Assembly: GCF_018977255.1 (NCBI RefSeq)
Contig: NW_024704759.1
Coordinates: 248,001 to 312,000, forward strand
Source of the DNA: Callorhinchus milii
Lineage: Eukaryota
Direction: 5' to 3'
DNA length: 64,000 nucleotides
Positions 48,453 to 64,000 of this stretch are shown here, piece by piece; positions within the stretch are counted from its first letter, which is position 1, and the number at the start of each line of letters is the position of its first letter. The notes under the pieces are model-generated. The model searched no databases. It had not been told where the DNA came from and saw only the letters and a program-made list of their open reading frames with translations. The position numbers were made by a program, and so were the translations under genes.

Positions 48453-48477
48453 NNNNNNNNNNNNNNNNNNNNNNNNN
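48453..48477. other. 25-N assembly gap at the left TIMMDC1 inversion breakpoint
   Basis: N run directly abutting the broken exon 6. Confidence 0.95.
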
Positions 48478-51400
48478 TCCCGCACAGTCTCTCCATTAGC
48501 TTTTTGCATCGACATCAGCAAGGCCCCAGTGGGTAACCTGCAACACAAGCCAGGGGCCAAGTCAGATTCCAAAACAGACGTCAGCAACATTGATGATGAA
48601 ATACAGTCCCGCACAGAACCTGTGACAAACGGGTGACACGGTGTCATCAGTCGCTGCTTGGTTATTGGCTCCGACATCTTCAGATTGTTATGTGAGAGGC
48701 CACGAGTGAGTGAGGGATGATTGTAGGATTAATCTCTCACCTACACGGCAGGAACCGCTCACCAGGAACTCACCCCAACACTGCCCCGATCACCATGCCG
48801 GCCAAACCTCCACCCACGCCAAGATTCAACCGGAACAATCCACCCGTAATTGCTGAAAAACAAGAATCTTTCACATTGAAAGTTGCAATGATCAAGCACT
48901 TTTTAAAGTGATTGAAATAAAAGGAAATGTAACATTCTAGACCCTGGTGTGGACAAGGCCCCGAGGAGAGCAGCCGCAGTCTAACCATTGCACCTCACTC
49001 TCACCTACAGCTGCACCATTGGTACCCACTTCCCCCACAGAATTGATTACATTAGCCTCCTGTTGCTGTGCAGTGTACCAGCAGATGCTGACTACACAAG
49101 GCCTAAACCAACCACTGGGAAGTGAGTTCAAACACCAAATCAGCACTGTCACACGCAGCTGAGATTAGGAACTCAGCACATGGTGGGAAGCATTGGGAGA
49201 CAACTGGTTTCCTCTGGAGTCCTGTAGCTCAGTGGTTAGAGCACTCGCTTTGCAAGTGAGAGACCCGAGTTCAATCCCCGGCAGGTCAGGGCGAAACCTT
49301 GGGCAAGTTTCCTTACTCCACACAGAACCTAATAATAATCCCTCCAAAACCAAAATAATAATAAATTGGTCATTTTCAATCTACGACTGTTTGTGGGGCA
49401 TTGCTGTGCGCAATTGGCTGCTGCGTTCGCCCACAAATATACAGTCAATTCACTTTACAGTGTGTTCTGTGAAGCGCTTTAGGACGTCCTCCCGACGTGA
49501 AAAGCGCTATATCAAATGCAAGGATTATTATTATTTTTATTACCACTGTACCACACCCAAACACCACTAACACCAGACCTGCTGTTACTATGAGTAAATT
49601 ACACATGCCCTTGCAGTACAGGATTCAATATAGAAGGGATCTTACCACCAGCCACAGAGTAATGTGTGAGGATATTCTGGTCTCGATACACGGACAGGCC
49701 TGTGCTCACAATGCTGTTCAAGAGGAGAAAAATGCATTAACACTGAAAACTTGCAATGGTTAAAATTCAGAATTCTCTGCCCCCAACTGTAGTTGAACCA
49801 GGATCTATTTTAGCAACTATTGTTACAAGAATTAGATGCTTGATGAGGAGGAATTTTATTCACAAATTCACTTTACAGTCTATTCTATTCTATTCTATTC
49901 TATTCTCTTCTGTGAAGCGCTTTGAGACGTCAAGAAGAAGTGAAAAGCTCTATATCAAATGCAAGGATTATTATTATTATTTAATGTGTGTGTGTTGGAG
50001 GGGATTAGGCTGGGTGGTATTTTCAGATAGGGAAAAATACTAGTTCATAAATGATGGGCTGAATGGTCTGTTTCTGTGCTTCTAAATAATATAATAATCC
50101 TTTTGTTCGGTACGTGACAGAAGAAGGACACCTCAAAACACTTCACAGAATTTACTATAAAATGTAGTGACATGAGCAGTGCAATGGGATTTTCACATCT
50201 GCCTGAACAGGCACAGACAGGACCCAGGTTTAACATCTCAGTTGAAGGATGGCACCTGACAATGCAGGGCTACCCCAGGCCTGCACTGAGGCGTTAGCTG
50301 AGACTATACAAGTTCAAAGTCACTGACATGTGACTTGAACCCACAACCTTCTAATTCAGAGGCAAGAATGCTACCAACTGGCTACACATTGAAGGCCTGA
50401 TCTTTGGTCTTTCCCTGGTTACCTGGTTACCTGTGAGCCTGTTCTCCAGTTACCCGTTACCTATTACCTGGTTACCTGATTATTCACTGAAATCACATGG
50501 AGCTCGAACGGTCACTTACTTGAATACTGTCACAAAGGCTGTCACTCTCCAGCTCCACCGCCAGCCGTACCGGATAAAGCCACGGATGGCGGCATTATGT
50601 GCTGAGCGCTGTGAGGGAGCAAGAGGGAGGGAGTGAGACAGGGTGTGCGCAACAGTGCATCTCTCTTCCTGCTGCCACGATCACCCCCCTCCCCTCCCTC
50701 CCAACAACATGAGGGTCTGTCTTCCCCTCACTGAGTGTACGATTCACCATCGCTTTCAGCAGCCTTCACAACAGAGCACTGAGACGAGACACAGCAACGA
50801 TTTAAACCGTTACACTAGTCCTCGCTTTCCAACACTTGTCATAAAGTACAAGCAAGCACACAATGCTGCTACAAAGCCAATGAACTCACCACAGCTTCAA
50901 TGCGATGTTTGTACACTTCAGCCTGGCTCAGCTCGATGTAGCGTTTCCTAGCGTGCTGAGCAGCAGGAATGCCCCCGTACACCAGCCCCACACTCCCAGC
51001 CATCAATGCCCCCTTCCAGATGTTCATTAGTTCCTCAGGATAGCTTTGCATCCGCCTGTGAACAAAGTACAGGCACTGAGGCCAGGCACAGCTGGGACAC
51101 GGCTTAGTGACATGTCTCCCATAGCCCCACGTACCCTCAGAGGACATTCTCGCATTGGCAGGATGTGACTAATGGAGTGCCACAAGGATCAGTGCTGGGC
51201 CTCAACTATTTACAATTTACATCAATGATCTCGACGAGGACATTGAATGTAACGTAACTAAATTCACGGATGACACTAAACTCGGTGGGAGAGTAAGCTC
51301 TGAGGATGATGCAAAAAGATTGCAACGGTATATAGGTGGGCGAGGGGAGTGGGCGAGTAGGTGGCAGATGGAATTTAATGTGGGGGAGTGTGAAGCTATT

Positions 51401-52519
51401 CACCAAGGTAGAAAAAATAGAAAAACAGATTATTTTCTAGAGGGGGAGAGATTAGATAGTGTTAGTGTGCAGAGGGTGTCCTTGTACACCAGTCTCAAAA
51501 AGTTAGTTTGCAGGTGCAGCAGCAACTAAGAAGGCGAATGGCATGTTAGCGTTCATTGCTAAAGGTTTAGAGTACAGGAGTAGGGAAGTCTTGCTGCAAC
51601 TGTATAGGGCCCCGGTGAGATTCCTAAAGGGCTGATAAAGTAGACACTGAGGGTCTGTTTCCCCGGGAGGAGAATCTATAACAAGGGGTCACAGTCTGAA
51701 AATTAAGGGTCAGCCTTTTAGAACAGAGTTGAGGAAACATTTGTTCACTCAGAGGGCAGTGAATTTATGGAATTCACTACCCCAGAAGAGCTGTAGATGC
51801 TCAGTCCTTGAACATCTTCAAGGCTGAGACTGAGAGAGGGATTAGGGGATATGGGGAGAGGGCAGGTAATTAGAGTTAGGTCAGAAGATCAGCCATGATC
51901 TTATCGAATGGCGGGGCAGGGCTCGAGTGGCCGAATGGCCGACTCCTGCTCCTAATTCTTATGTTCTTATGTTCTTATGTTCTTAGGTACCCCACACGCA
52001 GCTCAGCCAACACAAGGCCCAGTGAGTAAGAAATCTGCAGCCACAAACAGCGAGATGTGAATTGCAGGTGTACAGAGCAGGTAATGCCCGGCAAAGGCTA
52101 ACCTCAGATACACTTAGGGGCAGAATTTGTTCTCAAAACTATGTTTTTCATTTGAATACAAACTGCGTAACTCACGCTGCCTACAATCTTTTTCCAAAAA
52201 CTTCTGTTCAGTAACACAGAATTACATTGTGACAAGCTCCGCCCACAGAATGGAATCAAACCACGACTCACTCTTGGTCAAACAGCTCCCGGATTCGGTC
52301 CCAACCGCTTTCTGACACCTGAAGATTTGTGATGTGTTTGGGCAGAAAGCGCTTCTCCAGCTGCTCAGCCTCCAGCCCCAAGTCACCAGCTGCCAACACA
52401 CGCGGGAGATGGAGATGTCCGAGGTGATGGAGAGGCAGACATCTCTGGAGCATGAAGAGATACCGAACCAACCTGATGTTACTGCCTCCTGCCTCTCGCT
52501 TATCATCCTCTTCAGCCAT
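48478..52519 (-). CDS. TIMMDC1: TIMMDC1 (complex I assembly factor) coding exons 1-5 and 5' part of exon 6, inside an inverted block
   Basis: Exons 52519-52272, 51055-50890, 50608-50520, 49713-49646, 48852-48774 and 48537-48478 (ends at the N gap). Motifs [61 protein letters not shown]. Confidence 0.93.
49216..49540 (+). mobile_element. Full-length tRNA-derived DeuSINE-like SINE in a TIMMDC1 intron
   Basis: Head GGAGTCCTGTAGCTCAGTGG through tail GCAAGGATTATTATTAT. Confidence 0.85.
51145..51985 (+). mobile_element. CR1 fragment, near-identical to 21917-22948, with an internal deletion
   Basis: Direct sequence match; (TTCTTATG)n tail. Confidence 0.9.
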
Positions 52520-52789
52520 CTTCAATAATGTCTATCAAGGTAAGAGAAACCAGTGAGAAATCACCAGCAAATAACCCCCACACACTCACAGTGCAACAGA
52601 CCAGCGAGGAGGGGACGGAGTCACGCCAATGCATCTTTATATTACTGCAGTGCCTTTCATGTCGGGAGGATATCCCAAGGTGTTGGACACAGCTCTCCCG
52701 ACAGAAGCTCAGCTCCCGGAGAAATATTACAGGGAAGTCCTCAAACGTCCGAGCCCCAAAAGGAGAGCAGTTCCGAGCCTCAACTCCGA

Positions 52790-53530
52790 CCCCCAACCCT
52801 GCCCCCAACCCCAACCCTGCCCCCAACCCCAACCCTACCCCAACCCAACCCCAACCCTGCCCCAACCCCAACCCTACCCCAACCCTACCCCAACCCCAAC
52901 CCCAACCCTGCCCAACCCCAACCCTCCACCCCAACCCCACCCCAACCACCCCAACCCTACCCCAACACCCCAACCCCAGCCATACCCCAACCCAGCCCTA
53001 CCCCAACCCCAGCCCTACCCCAACCCTAACCCAACCCCAACCCACCCAACCCCAACCCCACCCCAACCCCAGCCATACCCCAACCCCAGCCCTACCCCAA
53101 CCCCAGCCCTACCCCAACCCTACCCCAACCCTACCACAACCCCAACCCCAACCCCAACCCTACCCCAACCCCAGCCCTACCCCAACCCTACCCCAACCCC
53201 AACCCTACCCCAACCCCAACCCTACCCCAACCCCAGCCCTACCCCAACCCCAACCCTACCCAACACCCAACCCTGCCCCCAACCCCAACCCTGCCCCCCA
53301 ACCCCAACCCCCCTACCCAACAACCCTACCCCAACCCCAACCCTGCCCCAACCCTACCCCAACCCAACCCTACCCCAACCCTACCCCAACCCCACCCTAC
53401 CCCAACCCCCCCTACCCCCACCCACCCTACCCCAACCCCACCCTACCCCAACCCCAGCCCTACCCCAACCCTACCCTCCCCAACCCTACCCCAACCCCAA
53501 CCCTACCCCAACCCCAACCCTACCCCAACC
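52790..53530. repeat. Hexamer-based C-rich repeat (CCCAAC/CCCTAC/CCCTGC)
   Basis: Read directly; ends exactly at the TIMMDC1 inversion breakpoint. Confidence 0.95.
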
Positions 53531-54054
53531 GCAAAGGCGCAGGGAGCAGAGAGAGCTGTACCAGCTCAAAGTGCAAGAATGGTAGGCTCTTGGTGTTTGC
53601 CTGCCACAAGTAATCTCTAGATTGAGAGACTGAGTAAACTGGTTATATTAGTAGGAGTTTGGGTGGTTGACGGGGTGATCTGGTTCAGTTCACAATAATG
53701 AAAGGTAAATGAAGCGATGCCTTGACCAGGCAAGTGGACCTGACTGGAAATCCAGAAACACATTCTTTACACACAGAGTCACCAAGAAAGAAATGGATAT
53801 TTATTTGCTTTGTAAGTGATTATTAGGGAGAAAAAGTAGGGAATTGGCATTAAAGAGTTGCCACAGATTTAATACAAAGCAGGCTTGACTGTTCCTGTTG
53901 TGATGGTGGTTTGTCGCTTTCCCACAGGGATGCCAGGCTCAATGTGACAGAAGGATTGATCCAAGAAATTGATCAGACGATTGAAAAAGGTCGAATGGAA
54001 AAGGATTTGGAGAAAATAGAAGAATTATTAAATCGTCCCAAAAATCCTGAGTAA
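53531..54054 (+). CDS. TIMMDC1: TIMMDC1 3' part of exon 6 (53531-53581) and terminal exon 7 (53928-54054)
   Basis: G CAA AGG CGC AGG GAG...GAA TG|gtagg gives [17 protein letters not shown]. cccacag|G GAT GCC AGG...CCT GAG TAA gives [41 protein letters not shown]. Both resemble the TIMMDC1 C-terminus (ELKLEEWKGRLQVTE...KIEALLNLPRNP) and phases fit. Confidence 0.88.
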
Positions 54055-54436
54055 CCAATGGACAGAAAATCAGGTGGACCGAAAAAAAAATTGTCAAATT
54101 GTAAATGAAGGAAAGATTCTGGTAAATATCTGTCCAATCAACTGCTATTGGGGCAAATAGCAATGCTGGCCCAGAGGAGGAGGCTACATCTGGATTTTAT
54201 AAGACTACAAATGTTTGATTCATATTTAGACATTTATGAGTCAGCCAAACTTGTTTCTATCGCTAGCATGGTGTAGTGATGTATTGGAAAAGGTTGATTG
54301 GTGTAAATTTTATAATAGAATATAAGTAATAGTTCCAACAAATCACTCTCACCTTGGGCTGGGCTGAAGCCCTGCTTCATTGCTGCTCAGCTTTTGGCCA
54401 CACCAGATGGATCACGACTCGGTCAGTGTGACAGAA

Positions 54437-54790
54437 ACAACAAAATTACATTTGTATAGTGCCTTTCACATCGGGAGGACGTCCAAGGCACTGGACAGAC
54501 AGAGTTACGGACTCGAACTGGGGGTCGGGGTGGGGGAGGGTGGAGGGCAAGGGGGGAAAGCAGGGAGATCAAAAGCACGGTCGAAGAGGAGGGTCTTGAG
54601 GTGGGTCTTGAAGGAGGCAAGGGAGGGGGCGAGATGGAGTGACTAGGATGGAGTTCCAGAGGGTGGGTGTGGAGTGGCAGAAGGCCCGCCCCGCCATTAG
54701 TGGGAGTCGTGAAACAGGCCGGAGCCCCCTAAGCGGAAGGAGCAAACGGTGGTAGGGGGTTAGGAGGTTGGAGAGGTAGGGGGGTGGAGC
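54437..54790 (-). mobile_element. L2 3' fragment
   Basis: MAGRAFCHSTPTLWNS on the minus strand, with tail. Confidence 0.7.
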
Positions 54791-56029
54791 AAGTGTGGGA
54801 TTGGGATCCCAGAAAGCCTGGGATTGGGATCTGGCCTTGTGAAGAGTTGCAGCCAAAGATTTGCATCCTGGCACAGCCCAATATTGAAACTGTGATTCAC
54901 CATTCTTGTTCCAGCAATTCATAAAGATTGTTCTTTAACATGGGCAATAGGTAGCAGAAGCTATAAAATGCAATTACAATCAGTTAGAAAAAGATTATCA
55001 AACCAGAGAAGAAAGTTTCTCTTTTTAGTGGATTTATAAATTTGCACAAATAAGACAATGAGTTACTCTGTAAAAAGTGAATCAAGGGTCAATGCAGCGT
55101 AACCATCACCTGAGTCCTCCAGCTCCACTGCCCTGAGGGCGCAGCACAGATACGATGGGCTGAGTGGCTTTCTATAGTTCTATAGCTCTGTACCAATTGA
55201 CTTTGAGGACTGCACCCACAGTAAATCCCTTGATGCCCTCCCTAACTTTGATGTTCTCTTACCCACTGCTCTGCCCCCATCACTCGGCCAGCTTGGGCTG
55301 CTGCACATTCCTTGCTCCTCTTAAGTCTCAGTTAATGGCCTTCAGCTATTACACCCCTCACCGTTGGAACTACTTCTGACTTCCCTCTGTCTCACCCCTT
55401 TCTATCTATTTGAAATCCTGCCTAGAAACCCATCTCTTCAGCAGTGCCTACATCCTCCCTTTCCCCTCTCCCCGGCATTCAGATCGTTTGTTGTGAAATG
55501 GTCTGAAACATCCTATATTTGTGCCATATAAATAGAAGTTGTTGAATTGCTCTTAATTGTGGTTTTTAATACAAAAAATATTTGAGCATGTGCAGACTGC
55601 TCCGGGTTTAGAAATACTAGTTTTAATAATAAAATCTCTTCCTGGATAGTTGCATCATCTTTTCTTTTTCTCTCTCTCCCAACCTGCGCCCGAGTGCTTT
55701 CCGGAATTAGATAAGCGGGATGGCTCCCCGCGGGGGGAGGGGGGGAGGGCGAGCGTCCCGTCCCGTCCCAGCAACGTCTCTGGGGTTTGTGTGGGTCAGA
55801 GGTGGGAATTGGTTTGGAGAGTTGAGCACATGCGTCAGACACGGATGACGTGTTTTCCTTTGACTTTGGACTGTTCACAATCTCCAGTCTCAGTACTGTG
55901 TATATATATTAAGTGTTTGTTGATATTTTAATATTTGTTGTGATTTTCCTGTGACCTGAGAGCCGCTCCGCACCTGCGCAGTAGCCCTGACCCCGCGCGG
56001 GGCGGTGAGTGGAGTGTGGAGCTATGGAT

Positions 56030-56105
56030 TGCGCAGGCGCACTGAGGGGCGGGCGGCTCTGCGCAGGCGCACTGCAGGGGGCGGCGGCTGCTCTGCGCAG
56101 GCGCG
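56030..56105 (+). promoter_or_regulatory. POGLUT1 CpG-island promoter/5'UTR with three NRF1-type sites and a GC box
   Basis: TGCGCAGGCGCA at 56030-56041 and 56060-56071, TGCGCAGGCGCG at 56094-56105, GGGCGG between them; directly precedes the ATG at 56106. Confidence 0.7.
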
Positions 56106-59100
56106 ATGCTCGGGGGATGGCGGTTGGCGGCGGCGCTGCTGTTGAGTGCGATCGCGAGCGGCGGATCGGGAACAACAAAAGGTGGGAACCGCACACGGCG
56201 CTCGGCAGCTGCTCGGGGTCCCGCCCTCACAGCTCCCGCTGCAGTAACACCGGGTCCCGGGGCTTCCCCCACCGTCAGCAGACACCCTGCGGGCGGACAG
56301 CGCCCCCTGTGGCTCACACCCTGAATCTGCAGCTCACACAGCGATTTAGTTTGAAATAATATATAATAATAATATACAGCGATCCTGAGCATCAACGGGA
56401 ACACCTGTAACATTAGAGTACACGCCGTGAGCTCTCAGCCCGAGCCGCTGCCCCAGAGCAGCGCTGTCCTTCACATCACACACTGAACTCGGTTCCTGTC
56501 TGCGGGGCCGGGGCTGGAGATCAGAACAGGTCCCGGTGTGTCCCGGTGTGTGTCGGTGTGTGTCGGTGTGTGTCGGGCACCGGTCCTCAGGTTCAGTTGT
56601 GGAGTCCTGTACATCAGTGCCTCGCGAGTGAGAGACTGGGTTTGATTCCCAGTGGGTGAAACGTTGGGCGAGTGTCCTTATTCCACACAGCTCTGTTTAC
56701 TCAGCAGTAAGTAGGAACCCGGTTGTTAGTCGATTGGTTGATCACTTTTCCGGGAGTAATAATTCCTTCGAAATAAATAAAAATAAATTGGTCACTCAAT
56801 CCACAACTGTTTGTGGGACACTGCTGTGCGCAATTGGCTGATGTGTTTCGCCCACAAAATAAAGTCACTTCACTTTACAGTATATTCTGTGAAGCTCTTT
56901 GAGACTCTCGATGATGTGATAAGGCGCAGGGATTACTATTATTATAATCACCTAATAGATGTGGGAGAATTTACGGTGTGTAAAATAGCTGCCACATTTG
57001 CCAACAACAGCAGTCATGACAAAGCTGGACAGTAACTGTGAACTGCATCAAGACATTAGTGTCAGACATTTCTCAGCTGTACGATTGATTTCATTATATA
57101 ATCATCCAAGTTTAGTTCTTAGCTCTCACACAAGTTATCATAGAGTTAGCCACATTGAACCTTGTACAATATGAAGCCTTCACTATATTTTATAAGGCTC
57201 TTACCTGATTATCCACAAATTGCTGCAGATTCATTGAGCATTTCAATGCTGTCTTTCAAAATAAATTATATTGTGGGATATTCCTTCCTCCCCATGCAAA
57301 CTCTTATACTTCATGAAGCAAGACAAACGTACAATCGAGAGATGGAAGTTCTAGTAAATTTAAAGCTGCTTTGAAAAGGGAGACATCTGACTTTAGTAAC
57401 AGAAAAAAACATATTCTCCTCCACAGCAGTACACTGGAGTTCCGCAAAAGGCAGCTGCCACTGCGTTAAACTGCACACTTGTTACAGTGCAATAAATCAC
57501 TGGCCAATCTGTTAGCAAATGAGAGTAGAGTGTAAATGGATTCATTGAGTATTTGGAAATTGAATTCTGGGTTACCTGAAAGTGCACCAAACCTTCTCTT
57601 TCTCTTTAGATGGAAAATGGCAGAAATACAAGGACAAGATCACAGTAGCGCTGGAATTGTATCAACCCTGTTTCCAGCACAACTGCAGCTGTCACCGGCG
57701 GTAAACTGGTTTTATAAGATCATCATGTGTCTGATACAGAAGCACAGCATCAGAGCAGTTAATGCATTGCTTAATTCGCTGATCTATATCAGTGCAACAC
57801 TACAGCAGATAATAATAACATTGTGTTCTGTTTCAAAGTATTGTTCTCTGATCACTGTTACCAGACTGTCATGAGAATAATCTGCCTGTGGCCTCGCATC
57901 ACATTGATGCTTATAATTGTGGGTGGTTGTGTGTAACCACGACAATTTGGGACTTTGACCACGGATTGTCACTATGGAGATGGTAAAGCCAGCTCCGGGT
58001 ATTGGGATAAGTAGCCCTGCTCCCTGGGTTTGACTCACGTCCTTTTGATGTTTTTCTCTTGTTCAGTGTGCTGGACAATGACCTTGCACACTTTAGGCAA
58101 GGAATTTCTCAGGAGATGCTGATGGAGACTGTCAGTCGAGGTGTGGGGACTCACTACCAGATCATAAACAAACAGTTGTATCGTCAAGAGGATTGTATGT
58201 TCCCAGCCAGGTGAGAGGGGCTCGAGCACAGCCCAGCTCATGCTGTCAGTCACTTGGGGCTAATTTGGGACTGACACAAATGCTGAACCTGTAGAAAGTT
58301 GTGTTGGATTTAAATTCCACAGCTCACTGCTCTTGGCTTCTGTAACTCTTACAACCTTTACAGTCTCTGTGCTACTAACTGTCTCTAACATTCCACAAAA
58401 CTACTTATAAACCCATCATATTGGTTTCTTCAAATCTATTCTGTAAATCGCAACAATTCACATTTACACATTGTCTTTTACCTTGGGAGGACATCTCAAA
58501 TCCTTTTACACTGCTGCTTGAGAGCCAGAGTGGGGTGGGGGGGGGGTGGGATGGGGGGTGCATCATCAAATCCACATCTGAAAATTCCCTGGACGTGTTT
58601 ATCAAAATGTGGATGGTTTGAGAATTTGAGTAGAATTTGGATGGAATAGTGTGCAAGAGGCATTTTAATAGGCAGCTATTAAAGGGCATTATGCCATAAT
58701 AGTGTTTTAAGTGCTCAATACACAACCCTGCATGAAGGGCGCTTATATAAATGCAAGTTGTTGTTTAGTCAATTTCCCTTTTAACCAAGGACATGTTGCT
58801 ACACTCCTTTGTATTGTATTCTTGGATTCTTCAGTAGCTTTGGCTGTTGGCTGCTCCAAACGCCTCGTGGTTCCAATTCTGTTCTGCTTTAGATGCAGTG
58901 GAGTCGAGCACTTCATCCTGGACATAATCTCCAAACTTCCTGACATGGAATTTGTGCTGAATGTGAGAGACTACCCTCAGGTCCCAGGGTGGGTGCAGAC
59001 CACCAGACCCGTTTTTTCATTCAGCAAGGTAAGGTCAATGGCACTGAGCGGATTTCAGGCCCACAACCTGTACAAGTGACTGCACTTTCACTGGTGAAAG

Positions 59101-62100
59101 TGATGTTGGTGATTGGTGATATTGGGACAGAGGACGAGTGAGAAGGGGAGGAGTGTCAGTGAGAAGAGGAGGAGTGTCGTGAGAAGGGGAGGAGTGTCAG
59201 TGAGAAGGGGAGGAGTGTCAGTGAGAAGGGGAGGAGTGTCAGTGAGAAGTGGAGGAGTGTCGTGAGAAGGGGAGGAGTGTCAGTGAGAAGAGGAGGAGTG
59301 TCGTGAGAAGGGGAGGAGTGTCAGTGAGAAGGGGAGGAGTGTCAGTGAGAAGAGGAGGAGTGTCGTGAGAAGGGGAGGAGTGTCAGTGAGAAGGGGAAAA
59401 GTGTCAGTGAGAAGTGGAGGAGTGTCGTGAGAAGGGGAGGAGTGTCGGTGAGAAGGGGAGGAGTGTCAGTGAGAAGGGGAGGAGTGTCAGTGAGAAGGGG
59501 AGGAGTGTCGTGAGAAGGGGAGGAGTCTCAGTGAGAAGGGGAGGAGTCTCCGTGAGAAGGGGAGGAGTCTCCGTGAGAAGGGGAGGAGTCTCAGTGAGAA
59601 GGGGAGGAGTCTCAGTGAGAAGGGAGTTGGGAGTGGGATGTCACTCAGTAGCCTTTTCCAATTCCTGAACTGACGTGTGATTTTTGTTGACTATAAACAT
59701 CTGTCTTTGTCACACAGAATGCTGATTACCATGACATCATGTATCCAGCGTGGACATTCTGGGAGGGGGGGCCGGCTGTCTGGCCCATTTACCCCACTGG
59801 CCTCGGGCGCTGGGACCTCATGAGGAAAGAATTACAATTGTGAGTGAAATCATCAGCATTGAATTAACTCTAAAAGCAGCAACAACAACAAAATTACATT
59901 TATAGAGCGCCTTTCACGTCAGGAGGATGTCCCAAAGTGGTGGACAATCAGGTGTCAGGACCTGAGCATGAGGGACGGGTGGGGTAGGGGGAGGGGCAGG
60001 GTAGGGGAGAGGGAAGGCATTGAGGTGGGAGGGAGACCAAAGGCACGATCAAAGAGGAGGGTCTTGAGACCGGCCTTGAAGGAGGCGAGGGAGGAAGTGA
60101 GGCGAAGGAACGGTCGGATGGAGTTCCAGAGTGTGGGGGCAGAGAGGGTGAAAGCCCGGCCACCGATGGTAGGGCGGGTCGGGTGGGAGACATGGAGCAG
60201 AGCGTAGCCCACCGAGCGGAGGGAGCGGGCAGGTTGGTAGGGAGTCAGCAAGTCAGAGAGGTAGGAATGGGTAAGGCCATGGATGGCCTTGGAAGTGAGG
60301 ACGAGGATCTTGAACTCGATCCTCTGGGGGAGTAGGAGGCACTGGAGTTTGGCGAGGGTGGGAGTGATGGGGTCACAGAGCCTGGTGAGTGAGAGTACAC
60401 GAGCTGCAGAGTTTTGGATGATCTGCAGATTGTGAAGGGAAGAGTTGGGAAGGCCGATGAGGAGGGAGTTTCCGTAATCGAGCCTTGATGTGACAAATGC
60501 GTGGGTGAGGGTTTCGGCAGCCTGAGGGGTGAGGCAGTGGCGGAGTCTGGCAATGTTGGAGGTGGTGGTAGGCAGTGCCAGTCATGGGGGAGAAAGGACA
60601 GTTCAGGGTCAAAAAAGACCCCCAGGTTCCTGACTGGCTTAGTGAGGTTGAGTGTGCAGCCATGGAGGCTGATGCGGAGGCGCTGGCGTGAGCCAATCAG
60701 GAGGGCCTCGGTCTTGCTGATGTTGAGTTGGAGAAAGTTGTCCCTCGTCCAGGACTTGATGTCGGACAGGCAGTCGGTCAGGACACCAGCAGTCCTGGAG
60801 TTGAGGGTGGAGGCAGAGAAGTAGAGTTGGGTGTCATCCGCATACATGTGGAAATTTACCCCATGTCTGTGGATGATGTCACCAAGGGGGAGCACGTAGG
60901 ACTTTCCACAGGGACCGAGGATAGAGCCCTGAGGAACACTGCACAAGACGGTGCGGGGGCTGGACGAGAAGCCGTTTGCTGCGACGAAGTGAAGGCGATG
61001 TGAAAGGTAGGACCTGAACCAGTCAAGGACAGAACCTTGAAGGTTGAGGTGGGAGCAGAGGTGGTGGAGAAGGATTGAATGGTCCACGGTGTCAAAGGCG
61101 GTGGAGAGTTCGAGGAGGACGAGGAGGCAGAGGGAGCCCTGGTCACACATGGTCAGGATGTCGTTTGTGACCTTAACCTGAGCAGTTACCGTGCTGTGGG
61201 CAGCACAGAAACCCGATTGGAGGGGTTCACAGAGGGAGTGAGAGGAGAGGAAAGAGCGAAGCTGGGAGGCAACGGCTCTCAAGGACCTTGGATAGGAAGA
61301 TGGGCTGGGAGCTAGATAGCTGTGATGGGTCAAGGGAAGGTTTCTTCAGAGTGGGGGTGATAATGGCTGTTTTGGGGGGGAAGGAACAGTGTCAGATGAC
61401 AGGGAGAGGTGGTTGATGTCGGCGAGTAGTGAGGCAAGGAGGTGGAGCCGGGATTTAAGGAAAGGAGTGGGGATGGGGTCCAGGGAGCAGGTGGTGGGCT
61501 TCATGGAGGATGTGGTGGTGAAGACAGAAGAGGGGTTGACAGGTTCAAAGGTGTGGAAGGAGGTAATTGTCAGAGTGTGGGTTTGTGGTAGGGAGGGGTT
61601 GATAGTTGGGGCGACCGTGGCAAATTAAAAGCAGATCATCAATGACCTCCTAATCTTAGAGTGTGACCTATGAATCCTTTTCTCTTACCCCCACCCTCCC
61701 CAACCGACTGAGTGATTGACAGGATAGATTGTGAAGACTGGCGATGGGGGCAATGTTGAGAAGGCATTTGCTTTCACATGTGCCCCCCTCAACAGCTACT
61801 GAAGCTCTGTCCCGTGCTATATGTGTTTTGCTGTCTGATATATAATATGTACTGTATGTTTGACATGAAAGGCTAACAATAAATGTAATGTGTTGTTGTT
61901 GATCCAGTGCACCTATTGGCACAATGTACATCCCATCTCTGTTTTCTCTCCACTAGATCTGCTGAAAAGTGGCCGTGGGACAAGAAAATTTCCAAAGGGT
62001 TTTTTAGAGGATCGAGGTGAGTGACCAATTTACAGTTAGGAACTGATTATTTTCCTCATCCATGTTTAACAATGCCAACACCCTGCTTGTCAGCCTTTCC

Positions 62101-64000
62101 AATTCTTCCCCCAGTATTGTGCTGAAGTTAGGCCTGGACAACAACTAATGTGGGTCTTGAGAACAGAAACTCTTACCCAGAACCAAGAGTGTGAGTGACT
62201 GAGCGGTCTGTTTAGACACCTGGGAATAAGTTTCCCAGACTCATTCCACATTGATTGTTTATGTTTATCGTTTCACCCACAAAATACAGTCACTACACTT
62301 TACAATGTATCCTGTGAAGTGCTTTGAGACCAGAGACGTGATCAGGCGCAGTATCAATTTTTTTTCATGGATTCATAGAATGTTACGGCACAGAAGGAGG
62401 CCATTCGGCCCATCGAGTCTGTGCGGCTCTTTGACAGAGCGTCACTTTTACGAACCCCAATCACTAGCTTTCTCCCCATAACTCTGCAAACCCGTCTTCC
62501 CCAGATACCTATCCAGTTCTCTCTTAAAAATTTGAAGGTTATTATTATACACATACCACATGACATACACACTACACATGCTCGGCACAGGACACATGAT
62601 CACAGACATGGTCAATACACACAGCAACAGAGATGTAACTTGAGTGACGCTGTGCCGTGTCACATCCACTGCCGCTCCCTCTCGCAAGCCAAATCTGCTT
62701 TCTACTCACACGTCATTTCGGAGGCCAAAAATAACTCCAAAATCCTGTCCTCCCGTCAGCCACCAACTCCTCCATGCACCTCATCAAGCATCCTAACATC
62801 TAATGGCAACTACAAAGAAATCTTGGATTTCTTTATTTCCAAGATAGACAACATTCCCATGGCTGCCTCCTCCTGCCCCGTGTCTCCCCCTCCCCCCACC
62901 CATGTCCCTCTCCATCACCCACTCCTCCTCCCACAGCTCCTATCATGGACCCCAAACTACATTCCTTTGCCCCCATCTTTCCCTCCTCCCTCTCATCCTC
63001 CATCACCCAGATGAAACCCACCACCTGCTGCCTCAACTCCCTCCCCACTCAACTCCCCTTCCTCTCCCCACTGCCTGCAGACACCAAAAATCAGTCCCTC
63101 TCCTCAGGCTCAGTCCCATTCCCACTCAAAACAGCGTTACTCACTTCCTTAAGAAACCTACTCACGATCCCTCCAACTCGCGCACTACCGTCCCATCTCA
63201 AACCTGGCCTTCCTGGCCAAAGCCCTGGAACATGTTGTTGTCAGTCAACTTCGCTCACACCTCGCCCTCCACTCCTGACTCAAGCCCCTCCAGTCCGGTT
63301 TCTGCCCAGCCCACAGCACAGAGATAGCGCTCGTCAAAGTAACAAACAACGTCCTCTCTCTCTGTGACCAGGGCTCCCTCTGCCTCGTCCTCATGCACCT
63401 CTCTGCCCCGTTTGACACAGTCGATCACACCATTCTCCTCCACTGCCTCTCCTCACTCAGCCTCCTTAGTGGGACCGCACTCGCATGGTTCAAGTCCTAC
63501 TTAACTAATCATTAACAATACATCTCGGCAAATGGCTTTCCCTCTCACCTCCCCTGGTCACCTGCGGGGTACCCCAAAGCTCCTTCCTTGGCCCTCTTCT
63601 TTCCTCTTCTATGTGCCCCCTCTTCGCGATGTCATCGCCAGACATGAGGTCAACTTCCACATGTATGCGGATGTCCCTCGTCTCCTCCACTCCACCATCG
63701 GTGACCGTGTCTTCATTCCCGAAACTCTGGAATTCTCTCCCTCCCCACCTTCAAAAAATCCCACTTGAAGGCTTCCTTTTTGATTGTGCTTACTGTCACC
63801 TCACCCTCCCCCGGCTCGTTGTCAGACTCCGTCACTCTTGGACCCTACCCCACATGAAGGCACTGTATAATGCAAGTTGTTGTTGTGCTATTCTGTGTTG
63901 TGCTGTGTCGTACTCACTGATTGACTGTTGGTGACTGTGTGTTTGATGCAGGACAAGCTCAGAGCGAGACCCACTGGTGTTGCTGTCCCACGCAGAGCCT
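56106..64000 (+). CDS. POGLUT1: Protein O-glucosyltransferase 1 (Rumi), exons 1-7, truncated by the window end
   Basis: Exons 56106-56181 (signal peptide), 57610-57700, 58067-58210, 58893-59028, 59718-59839, 61957-62016, 63952->64000. Motifs NCSCH, GTHYQII...[72 protein letters not shown]. Confidence 0.95.
56600..56948 (+). mobile_element. DeuSINE-like SINE, long variant with internal CAGCAGTAAGTAGGAACC segment
   Basis: Degenerate tRNA head, internal segment shared with 16860-17075, 33480-33650 and 42360-42630, Deu core and ATT tail. Confidence 0.7.
59138..59622. repeat. 20-21-bp purine-rich minisatellite GTGAGAAGGGGAGGAGTGTCA in POGLUT1 intron 4
   Basis: Read directly. Confidence 0.95.
59878..61612 (-). 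mobile_element. L2 LINE, 5'-truncated, RT-encoding, in a POGLUT1 intron
   Basis: ORF 60245-61333 contains [27 protein letters not shown] and YADDTQLY; 3' tail (TTG)n at ~59880. Confidence 0.9.
62670..63885 (+). mobile_element. Degenerate L2 LINE with internal deletion
   Basis: MKPTTC, QSGF and HMYAD motifs; L2 tail. Confidence 0.75.

What the first reader, a model, noticed from the sequence alone, without database searches (positions are those of the whole stretch)
48478..54054. TIMMDC1 is split across both strands by a base-exact 5-kb inversion that breaks exon 6
Seen: minus-strand exon 6 runs 60 nt from its acceptor (48537) to ...GAG ACT GTG CGG GA at 48478 and hits a 25-N gap. At 53531, directly after the (CCCAAC)n repeat and with no acceptor, the plus strand reads G CAA AGG CGC AGG GAG...GAA TG|gt (51 nt), followed by a proper terminal exon at 53928-54054. 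Reverse-complementing 48478-53530 joins GA+G in frame ([22 protein letters not shown]). This gives a 111-nt exon, the length I recall for human exon 6, and an intact 888-nt, 295-aa CDS with no stop or frameshift. Inference: both halves look undecayed and the gene is a complex I assembly factor, so a flipped contig or gap-filling error is most likely. A very recent or heterozygous inversion allele, or a somatic rearrangement, are less likely alternatives. The break is inside an exon, so trans-splicing cannot explain it, and I see no inverted repeats at the ends.
Basis: partly seen in the sequence, partly recalled or inferred. Interest (0 to 1): 0.85.

Follow-up and report, generated by a model that had tools for sequence, protein, structure and literature searches.

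The report
Assembly flip splits intact TIMMDC1 gene
In this genome sequence the front part of the mitochondrial gene TIMMDC1 lies backwards next to a run of unknown bases, but the lengths of contigs from four public sequencing samples fit an unbroken gene, so the split is most likely an assembly error rather than biology.

Summary
Exons 1-5 and 60 nt of exon 6 lie on minus (52519-48478); the other 51 nt and exon 7 lie on plus (53531-54054). Joined, they give 888 nt identical to a named 295-aa TIMMDC1 record. It is the only copy in G000.

Contigs of four public runs were laid on the right junction. The tool withheld the letters beyond the break, but lengths decide. One RNA-like contig is 113 nt: intact exon 6 plus one shared base on each side. 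Two DNA-like contigs run 762 and 761 bases past the break. On the intact path they end at 49239 and 49238, exactly where genome-wide repeated words begin. The assembled path would need repeated 31-mers, which such contigs cannot hold. No run shows the inverted junction. Runs of exactly 25 N recur (3 in 424 kb of this contig).

Verdict: an assembly artefact (about 0.93), likely a gap extension written on the wrong strand. A private inversion in the assembled animal is not excluded (about 0.04). The scan earlier noted a similar flip near a gap at SPRY1 in this genome.

The parts
48453..48477 (.). 25-N run at the left end of the flipped block; likely an assembly gap (a gap and a masked stretch cannot be told apart in the window)
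   Evidence: two more runs of exactly 25 N in 424 kb of C18 and one in 40 kb of C1
48478..53530 (-). 5,053-base block lying reverse-complemented relative to its right flank; carries TIMMDC1 exons 1-5, the first 60 nt of exon 6 and the C-rich repeat
48478..48537 (-). TIMMDC1 exon 6, first 60 nt (AG acceptor, no donor)
48774..48852 (-). TIMMDC1 exon 5 (79 nt)
49209..49239 (.). start of a dispersed repeat inside intron 4; the two long DNA-like contigs would end here on the intact path
49646..49713 (-). TIMMDC1 exon 4 (68 nt)
50520..50608 (-). TIMMDC1 exon 3 (89 nt)
50890..51055 (-). TIMMDC1 exon 2 (166 nt)
52272..52519 (-). TIMMDC1 first coding exon, coding part (248 nt from ATG); an AG at 52533-52532 may be an acceptor for an unseen non-coding first exon
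   Evidence: the upstream exon is inference
52791..53530 (.). 740-base degenerate C-rich tandem repeat; upstream of the gene in the corrected order; a repeat type common in G000
53531..53581 (+). TIMMDC1 exon 6, last 51 nt (no acceptor, GT donor)
   Evidence: spliced to exon 7 in run X5 (joint skipping 346 bases, GT..AG)
53928..54054 (+). TIMMDC1 exon 7, coding part to the stop (127 nt); X5 contig 7 continues through at least 54420

Best explanation
The block 48478-53530 is reverse-complemented in this sequence, most likely by an assembly error, and the animal likely carries one ordinary seven-coding-exon TIMMDC1 gene on the plus strand. Shown: the halves join base-exactly into a named protein, and public contig lengths fit the intact path and exclude the assembled one. 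Inferred route (about two thirds of the artefact probability): a contig once ended at 53531, inside exon 6. A gap-filling step extended it leftwards by about 5 kb until it ran into the C-rich repeat. The extension was written on the wrong strand, flush against the old end, and a fixed-size 25-N gap was left on the other side. This accounts for a gap on one side only, a flush join on the other, no lost or doubled base, and a repeat at the block's far end.
For: (1) Joined CDS equals P0001, in 1 of 14 in-frame placements, and is ungapped against bichir orthologues. (2) X5 contig 4 is 113 nt with 61 letters beyond the break: 111-nt exon plus the one G shared by intron and neighbouring exon at each end; its depth is 86 against 5 in intron 6. 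(3) X1 and X2 contigs reach 762 and 761 letters beyond the break, so on the intact path they end at 49239 and 49238. The 30-mer ending at 49239 occurs 4 times in G000. Two of the three other copies diverge right before it and one shares one more base, giving branch points at exactly these two ends. The stretch 48478-49225 has no other match in G000 and no internal repeated 31-mer. (4) The assembled path has 137 of 732 31-mer positions repeated, while Logan contigs hold each 31-mer once by construction (PMC12424806 passage); the first recurring 30-mer starts at 53501, next to the junction. (5) Each of the 3 DNA-like runs has one contig here and none stops at 53531, as it would if both junctions were in the graph. 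(6) Exactly 25 N recurs: 3 runs in 424 kb of C18, 1 in 40 kb of C1. (7) No repeat pair, duplication or loss at the breakpoints.
Against: The letters beyond the break were not seen: the tool skipped 53491-53543 and dropped 4 loose-end rows, which it calls mostly false. On the assembled path the X1/X2 contigs would end at 52769/52770, 21-22 bases past the far end of the repeat. That fits the rival on length alone and is ruled out only by the repeated-word argument. The X4 end (48763 on the intact path) is unexplained. The kind of the runs is not on record, and none is known to be the assembled animal. Contigs drop rare variants. P0001's record lies on a contig of the same length as C18, so it may not be independent of this assembly; that it was completed from transcript evidence is inference. 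The left junction was not tested. No paper describing a wrong-strand extension was found. The other 25-N runs did not show the same layout.
Confidence: 0.93

Rival explanations
1. Still an artefact, but by another route: a scaffolding or curation step cut a correct contig at 53530/53531 and turned the piece, or a fold-back long read was assembled. This is a share (about one third) of the 0.93, not an addition to it.
For: A cut-and-turn also gives a base-exact junction. Gaps left unclosed by gap fillers are attributed in part to inversions and other mistakes of the input assembly (PMC3504050 passage).
Against: A turned contig would normally carry a gap on both sides; here there is none at 53530/53531. 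A fold-back read repeats sequence on both strands (PMC3504050 passage), and nothing is doubled here.
Confidence: 0.3
2. A real, very recent inversion (germline heterozygous or somatic) private to the assembled animal, made by blunt end-joining between the repeat and exon 6. It would give a transcript cut after codon 236.
For: The junction 53530/53531 has no N. One breakpoint is at a G/C-rich tandem repeat. The runs laid need not include the assembled animal. A human truncation about six codons further on is reported as tolerated (PMC8799713 passage; the position mapping assumes equal exon structure).
Against: The second breakpoint coincides with a 25-N run of recurring size. There is no microhomology, insertion, loss or repeat pair. 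The junction is absent from 3 of 3 DNA-like runs by contig geometry.
Confidence: 0.04
3. An inversion polymorphism segregating in the species.
For: Only three DNA-like samples of one study were laid, out of 24 runs listed; contigs drop rare variants.
Against: No branching at 53531 in X1, X2 or X4, and an intact exon-length contig in X5 from a second study. Both halves are free of stops and frameshifts.
Confidence: 0.015
4. The layout is real and fixed, and the message is repaired at RNA level by trans-splicing of two opposite-strand precursors.
For: Only that a full-length protein record exists while the assembled DNA is not collinear.
Against: There is no donor at 48478 and no acceptor before 53531. 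DNA-like contigs run on past the break along the intact path.
Confidence: 0.005

Closest known systems
TIMMDC1, complex I assembly factor (Tim17/Tim22/Tim23 family, PF02466)
   Same: The joined coding sequence equals the record named TIMMDC1 of Callorhinchus milii (XP_042197682.1, XP_042197794.1, UniRef100_V9KYM6). Tim17 domain at residues 96-216. 57% identity to bichir TIMMDC1.
   Different: Nothing in the protein. Only the assembled DNA is non-collinear. Two accessions, one called '-like', give the same protein although G000 holds one copy; possibly one model per half (inference).
Unclosed or overfilled gaps after long-read gap filling (PBJelly type; PMC3504050, PMC9635638, PMC8848313, PMC6240028, passages read)
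   Same: 25 N is that tool's minimum gap size, flank extension into a gap is a described step, and unclosed gaps are linked to errors such as inversions. Here runs of exactly 25 N recur and one borders the flipped block.
   Different: The passages describe added or duplicated sequence, not an extension on the wrong strand. No duplication is seen at this gap. Which software built G000 is not known to me.
Real gene-breaking inversions between inverted repeats (F8 intron 1/22 type; recalled, no call)
   Same: The front part of a gene points away from its back part.
   Different: Those break inside introns between homologous repeat copies and have two sequenced junctions. Here the break is inside an exon, no repeat pair exists and one end is a run of N.

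Membership tests
TIMMDC1 orthologue | Tim17-family membrane domain | tested here: met
   PF02466, E 1.4e-15, residues 96-216 of P0001; P0001 equals the joined CDS
TIMMDC1 orthologue | Similarity to named TIMMDC1 proteins including the C-terminal part from 53531-54054 | tested here: met
   Identity to P0001; 57% to P0002 and P0004, ungapped across the break
TIMMDC1 orthologue | Single-copy gene, no second intact or decayed copy | tested here: met
   All 6 protein matches lie at this locus; the DNA search found this place and one 88-base intron match at 79%
TIMMDC1 orthologue | Acts in assembly of the ND1 module of complex I | not testable with these tools
   Known for the human protein (PMC8799713 passages)
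Real genomic inversion | Inverted right junction present in DNA reads | tested here: not met
Real genomic inversion | Inverted left junction present in DNA reads | not tested
   It lies at the N run, and the one read-laying run was used on the right junction
Real genomic inversion | Breakpoint signature (inverted repeat pair, microhomology, small loss or insertion) | tested here: not met
   blunt joining without a signature remains possible
Real genomic inversion | Junction in reads of the very animal assembled | not testable with these tools
   Runs are coded and kept as contigs
Gap-filling artefact | Borders an assembly gap of conventional size | tested here: met
   25 N at 48453-48477; same size at C18:418336, C18:469264 and C1:842924; a masked stretch cannot be strictly excluded
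Gap-filling artefact | Independent data restore a collinear sequence | tested here: met
   113-nt contig in X5; ends at 49239 and 49238 in X1 and X2
Gap-filling artefact | Duplicated sequence across the gap (overfilling) | tested here: not met
   None at this gap beyond dispersed repeats; a 3.3-kb 98% duplicate is seen at the C1 gap
Gap-filling artefact | Block is absent from the pre-filling contigs | not testable with these tools
   Intermediate assemblies are not held
Trans-spliced gene | Splice donor and acceptor at the strand switch | tested here: not met

The most novel reading that the evidence does not exclude
The assembled animal really carried a blunt 5-kb inversion, with one end at a G-rich repeat, that cuts TIMMDC1 inside exon 6: a natural truncation allele of a complex I assembly factor, close to the tolerated human p.Arg225* site, absent from the three genomic samples tested.
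Probability: 0.04. Interest if true: 0.4.

Novelty: not a real feature. Interest (0 to 1): 0.07.

Why it matters
As biology it very likely does not: the gene appears ordinary. As a caution it does. This assembly shows a false gene break with no gap at the visible junction. That can split one gene into two annotations and can be read as gene loss, inversion or trans-splicing. Kilobase-scale strand flips near 25-N runs in this genome, such as the earlier SPRY1 note, should be checked against reads before being interpreted. If the 4% case were true it would be a natural truncation allele of a disease gene, of modest interest.

Tried and rejected
The intact-junction 16-mer has 0 matches in the window at up to 3 mismatches, so no second intact copy lies nearby; none lies elsewhere in G000. 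No RNA holder is on record; X5 is a guessed RNA run. Letters of the loose ends at the break were not returned. I looked for the same flipped-block layout at other 25-N runs. C18:418336 lies between tandem repeats and C18:469264 between a repeat and a LINE, so neither offers a gene to test orientation. At C1:842924 there is a direct duplicate, and the SPRY1 reading frame lies about 4.5 kb away, so a shared layout is not shown. A join of two unrelated chromosome pieces at the gap was considered; the Pfam hits on both sides fit one neighbourhood by recalled human gene order, so it was set aside, not disproved. No CpG-rich promoter was found between 41600 and 55600, so the gene's start was not located. 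Paper searches: TIMMDC1 + POGLUT1 + synteny gave 0 papers; TIMMDC1 with elephant-shark terms listed none on this gene among 15 shown of 1,086; three searches for a wrong-strand gap-filling error found none. Earlier scan notes on this protein: none. No fold or complex job was sent, because the question is one of DNA order. Supplements were not read.
Full report
Observation. Five whole exons and the first 60 nt of a sixth lie on the minus strand between 52519 and 48478, where a 25-N run begins. The last 51 nt of that exon start at 53531 on the plus strand, directly after a 740-base C-rich repeat and without an acceptor, and are followed by a normal intron and terminal exon. Joined by coordinates in a script, the pieces give 888 nt and 295 aa, identical to database protein P0001, which its sources name TIMMDC1 of Callorhinchus milii. 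Of 14 in-frame placements of the junction, only the one with no base trimmed or added gives this protein. The protein carries the Tim17 domain and aligns without a gap across the break to two bichir proteins. G000 holds one copy.

Independence of the protein record. P0001 has two RefSeq-type accessions, one called '-like', and its contig has the same length as C18. It is therefore probably annotated on this same sequence. It cannot be read collinearly from it, so I infer that it was completed from transcript evidence. I did not see that evidence, so reads were needed.

Read evidence. Of 24 runs listed, four were laid on 53491-54420: X1, X2 and X4 (one study; flat depth over exon and intron and about 890 million contig letters each, so DNA-like, though their kind is not on record) and X5 (second study, guessed RNA). 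The tool skipped 53491-53543 as repeat and dropped four loose-end rows, so the letters beyond the break were not shown. The contig lengths and places it gave still allow a test. X5 contig 4 is 113 nt long and has 61 letters beyond 53531. An intact exon 6 is 111 nt, and intron and neighbouring exon share exactly one G at each end, so 113 is the length predicted where spliced and unspliced paths part. Its depth is 86, against 5 in intron 6, and the exon 6-7 splice is seen. The X1 and X2 contigs have 762 and 761 letters beyond the break, so on the intact path they end at 49239 and 49238. I predicted from this that the 30-mer ending at 49239 is repeated in the genome: it occurs 4 times. Two of the other three copies diverge immediately before it and one shares one more base, so branch points fall at exactly the two observed ends. 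The stretch up to there has no other match in G000 (that search skips very common words) and no internal repeated 31-mer.

The assembled path fails the same test. It would need a contig through the whole repeat, where 137 of 732 31-mer positions are repeated. [quoted passage not shown] Against my reading: on length alone the assembled path would end at 52769/52770, just past the far end of the repeat; the X4 end (286 letters beyond the break, 48763) has no explanation; contigs drop rare variants; and none of the runs is known to be the assembled animal. Each DNA-like run has a single contig here and none stops at the break, which argues against a heterozygous inverted allele in these three samples.

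The breakpoints and the gap. No inverted repeat links the two ends among the 25 longest of 65 pairs. No base is lost or doubled, and the ends show no microhomology. A masked stretch and a gap cannot be told apart in the window, but exactly 25 N recurs: three times in 424 kb of C18 and once in 40 kb of C1. This points to an assembly convention. 25 N is the minimum gap size of a widely used long-read gap filler, which also extends contig flanks into gaps, and whose unclosed gaps are linked to errors such as inversions (PMC3504050, PMC6240028, PMC9635638, PMC8848313; passages). I do not know what built G000.

Mechanism. Shown: the block is reversed relative to its right flank, and outside data fit the unreversed order. 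Inferred: a contig ended at 53531, was extended leftwards through the gene into the repeat, and the extension was written on the wrong strand, flush to the old end, with a 25-N gap left on the far side. This explains a gap on one side only and a base-exact join. A cut-and-turn by a scaffolder or a fold-back read explains these less well. I found no paper describing the wrong-strand step, and the other 25-N runs gave no second clean example, so the route is held at about two thirds of the artefact probability.

Rivals. A real inversion private to the assembled animal cannot be excluded without its reads (0.04). Mouse nulls are lethal, but a human stop at Arg225, about six codons beyond the matching position if exon structure is shared, is reported as nearly harmless (PMC8799713, passages; the original report was not read). 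A population polymorphism (0.015) and trans-splicing (0.005) are contradicted by the contigs and by the lack of splice sites at the break.

Context. Pfam hits place RAD21/REC8-, TMEM74- and PI31-type genes to the left, and a glycosyltransferase-90 gene followed by SPOC/TFIIS/PHD, HLH and collagen hits to the right. The gene names I attach to these (RAD21L1, TMEM74B, PSMF1, POGLUT1, DIDO1, TCFL5, COL9A3) are recalled from human gene order. An earlier scan note (e1-7791166) describes a similar flip at SPRY1 in this genome. I confirmed a 25-N run about 4.5 kb from that reading frame, with a 3.3-kb duplicate across it, but not the flip itself.

Verdict. The sequence pattern is real in the file and very likely not in the animal. 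Novelty: not a real feature. Interest 0.07, for its value as a warning about this assembly.

Noticed in passing
G000:C1:842924-842948 (L027): A 25-N run with a 3.3-kb, 98%-identical direct duplicate on its two sides, about 4.5 kb from the SPRY1-like reading frame; it looks like an overfilled gap and may bear on the earlier SPRY1 note.
   Followed up: partly
window 48478-64000 and G000:C18:312001-422000: TIMMDC1 and a POGLUT1-like gene sit in the order TIMMDC1 then POGLUT1, between genes that I recall from human chromosome 20, while TMEM39 genes lie on C4 and C10. In human I recall the pair on chromosome 3 beside TMEM39A and in the other order. No paper on this synteny was found.
   Followed up: partly
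G000:C18:411148-418360 (L022, L030): Only two collagen Gly-X-Y exons were found before the 25-N run at 418336 and none after it up to 512000; the collagen gene may be cut off at that gap.
   Followed up: no
G000:C18:469289-473100 (L035, L036): A nearly full-length LINE-type element, with a 742-aa open frame, starts right at the 25-N run.
   Followed up: no
window 52533-52520, minus strand: An acceptor-like AG lies 13 bases before the start codon and no CpG-rich stretch was found upstream; a non-coding first exon and the promoter may be missing from the assembly or lie near the GC-rich repeat at 37060-41624, head to head with the PI31-type gene.
   Followed up: no
window 37060-41624: A 4.6-kb GC-rich tandem array of an 18-base unit lies at the 5' end of the PI31-type gene.
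   Followed up: no
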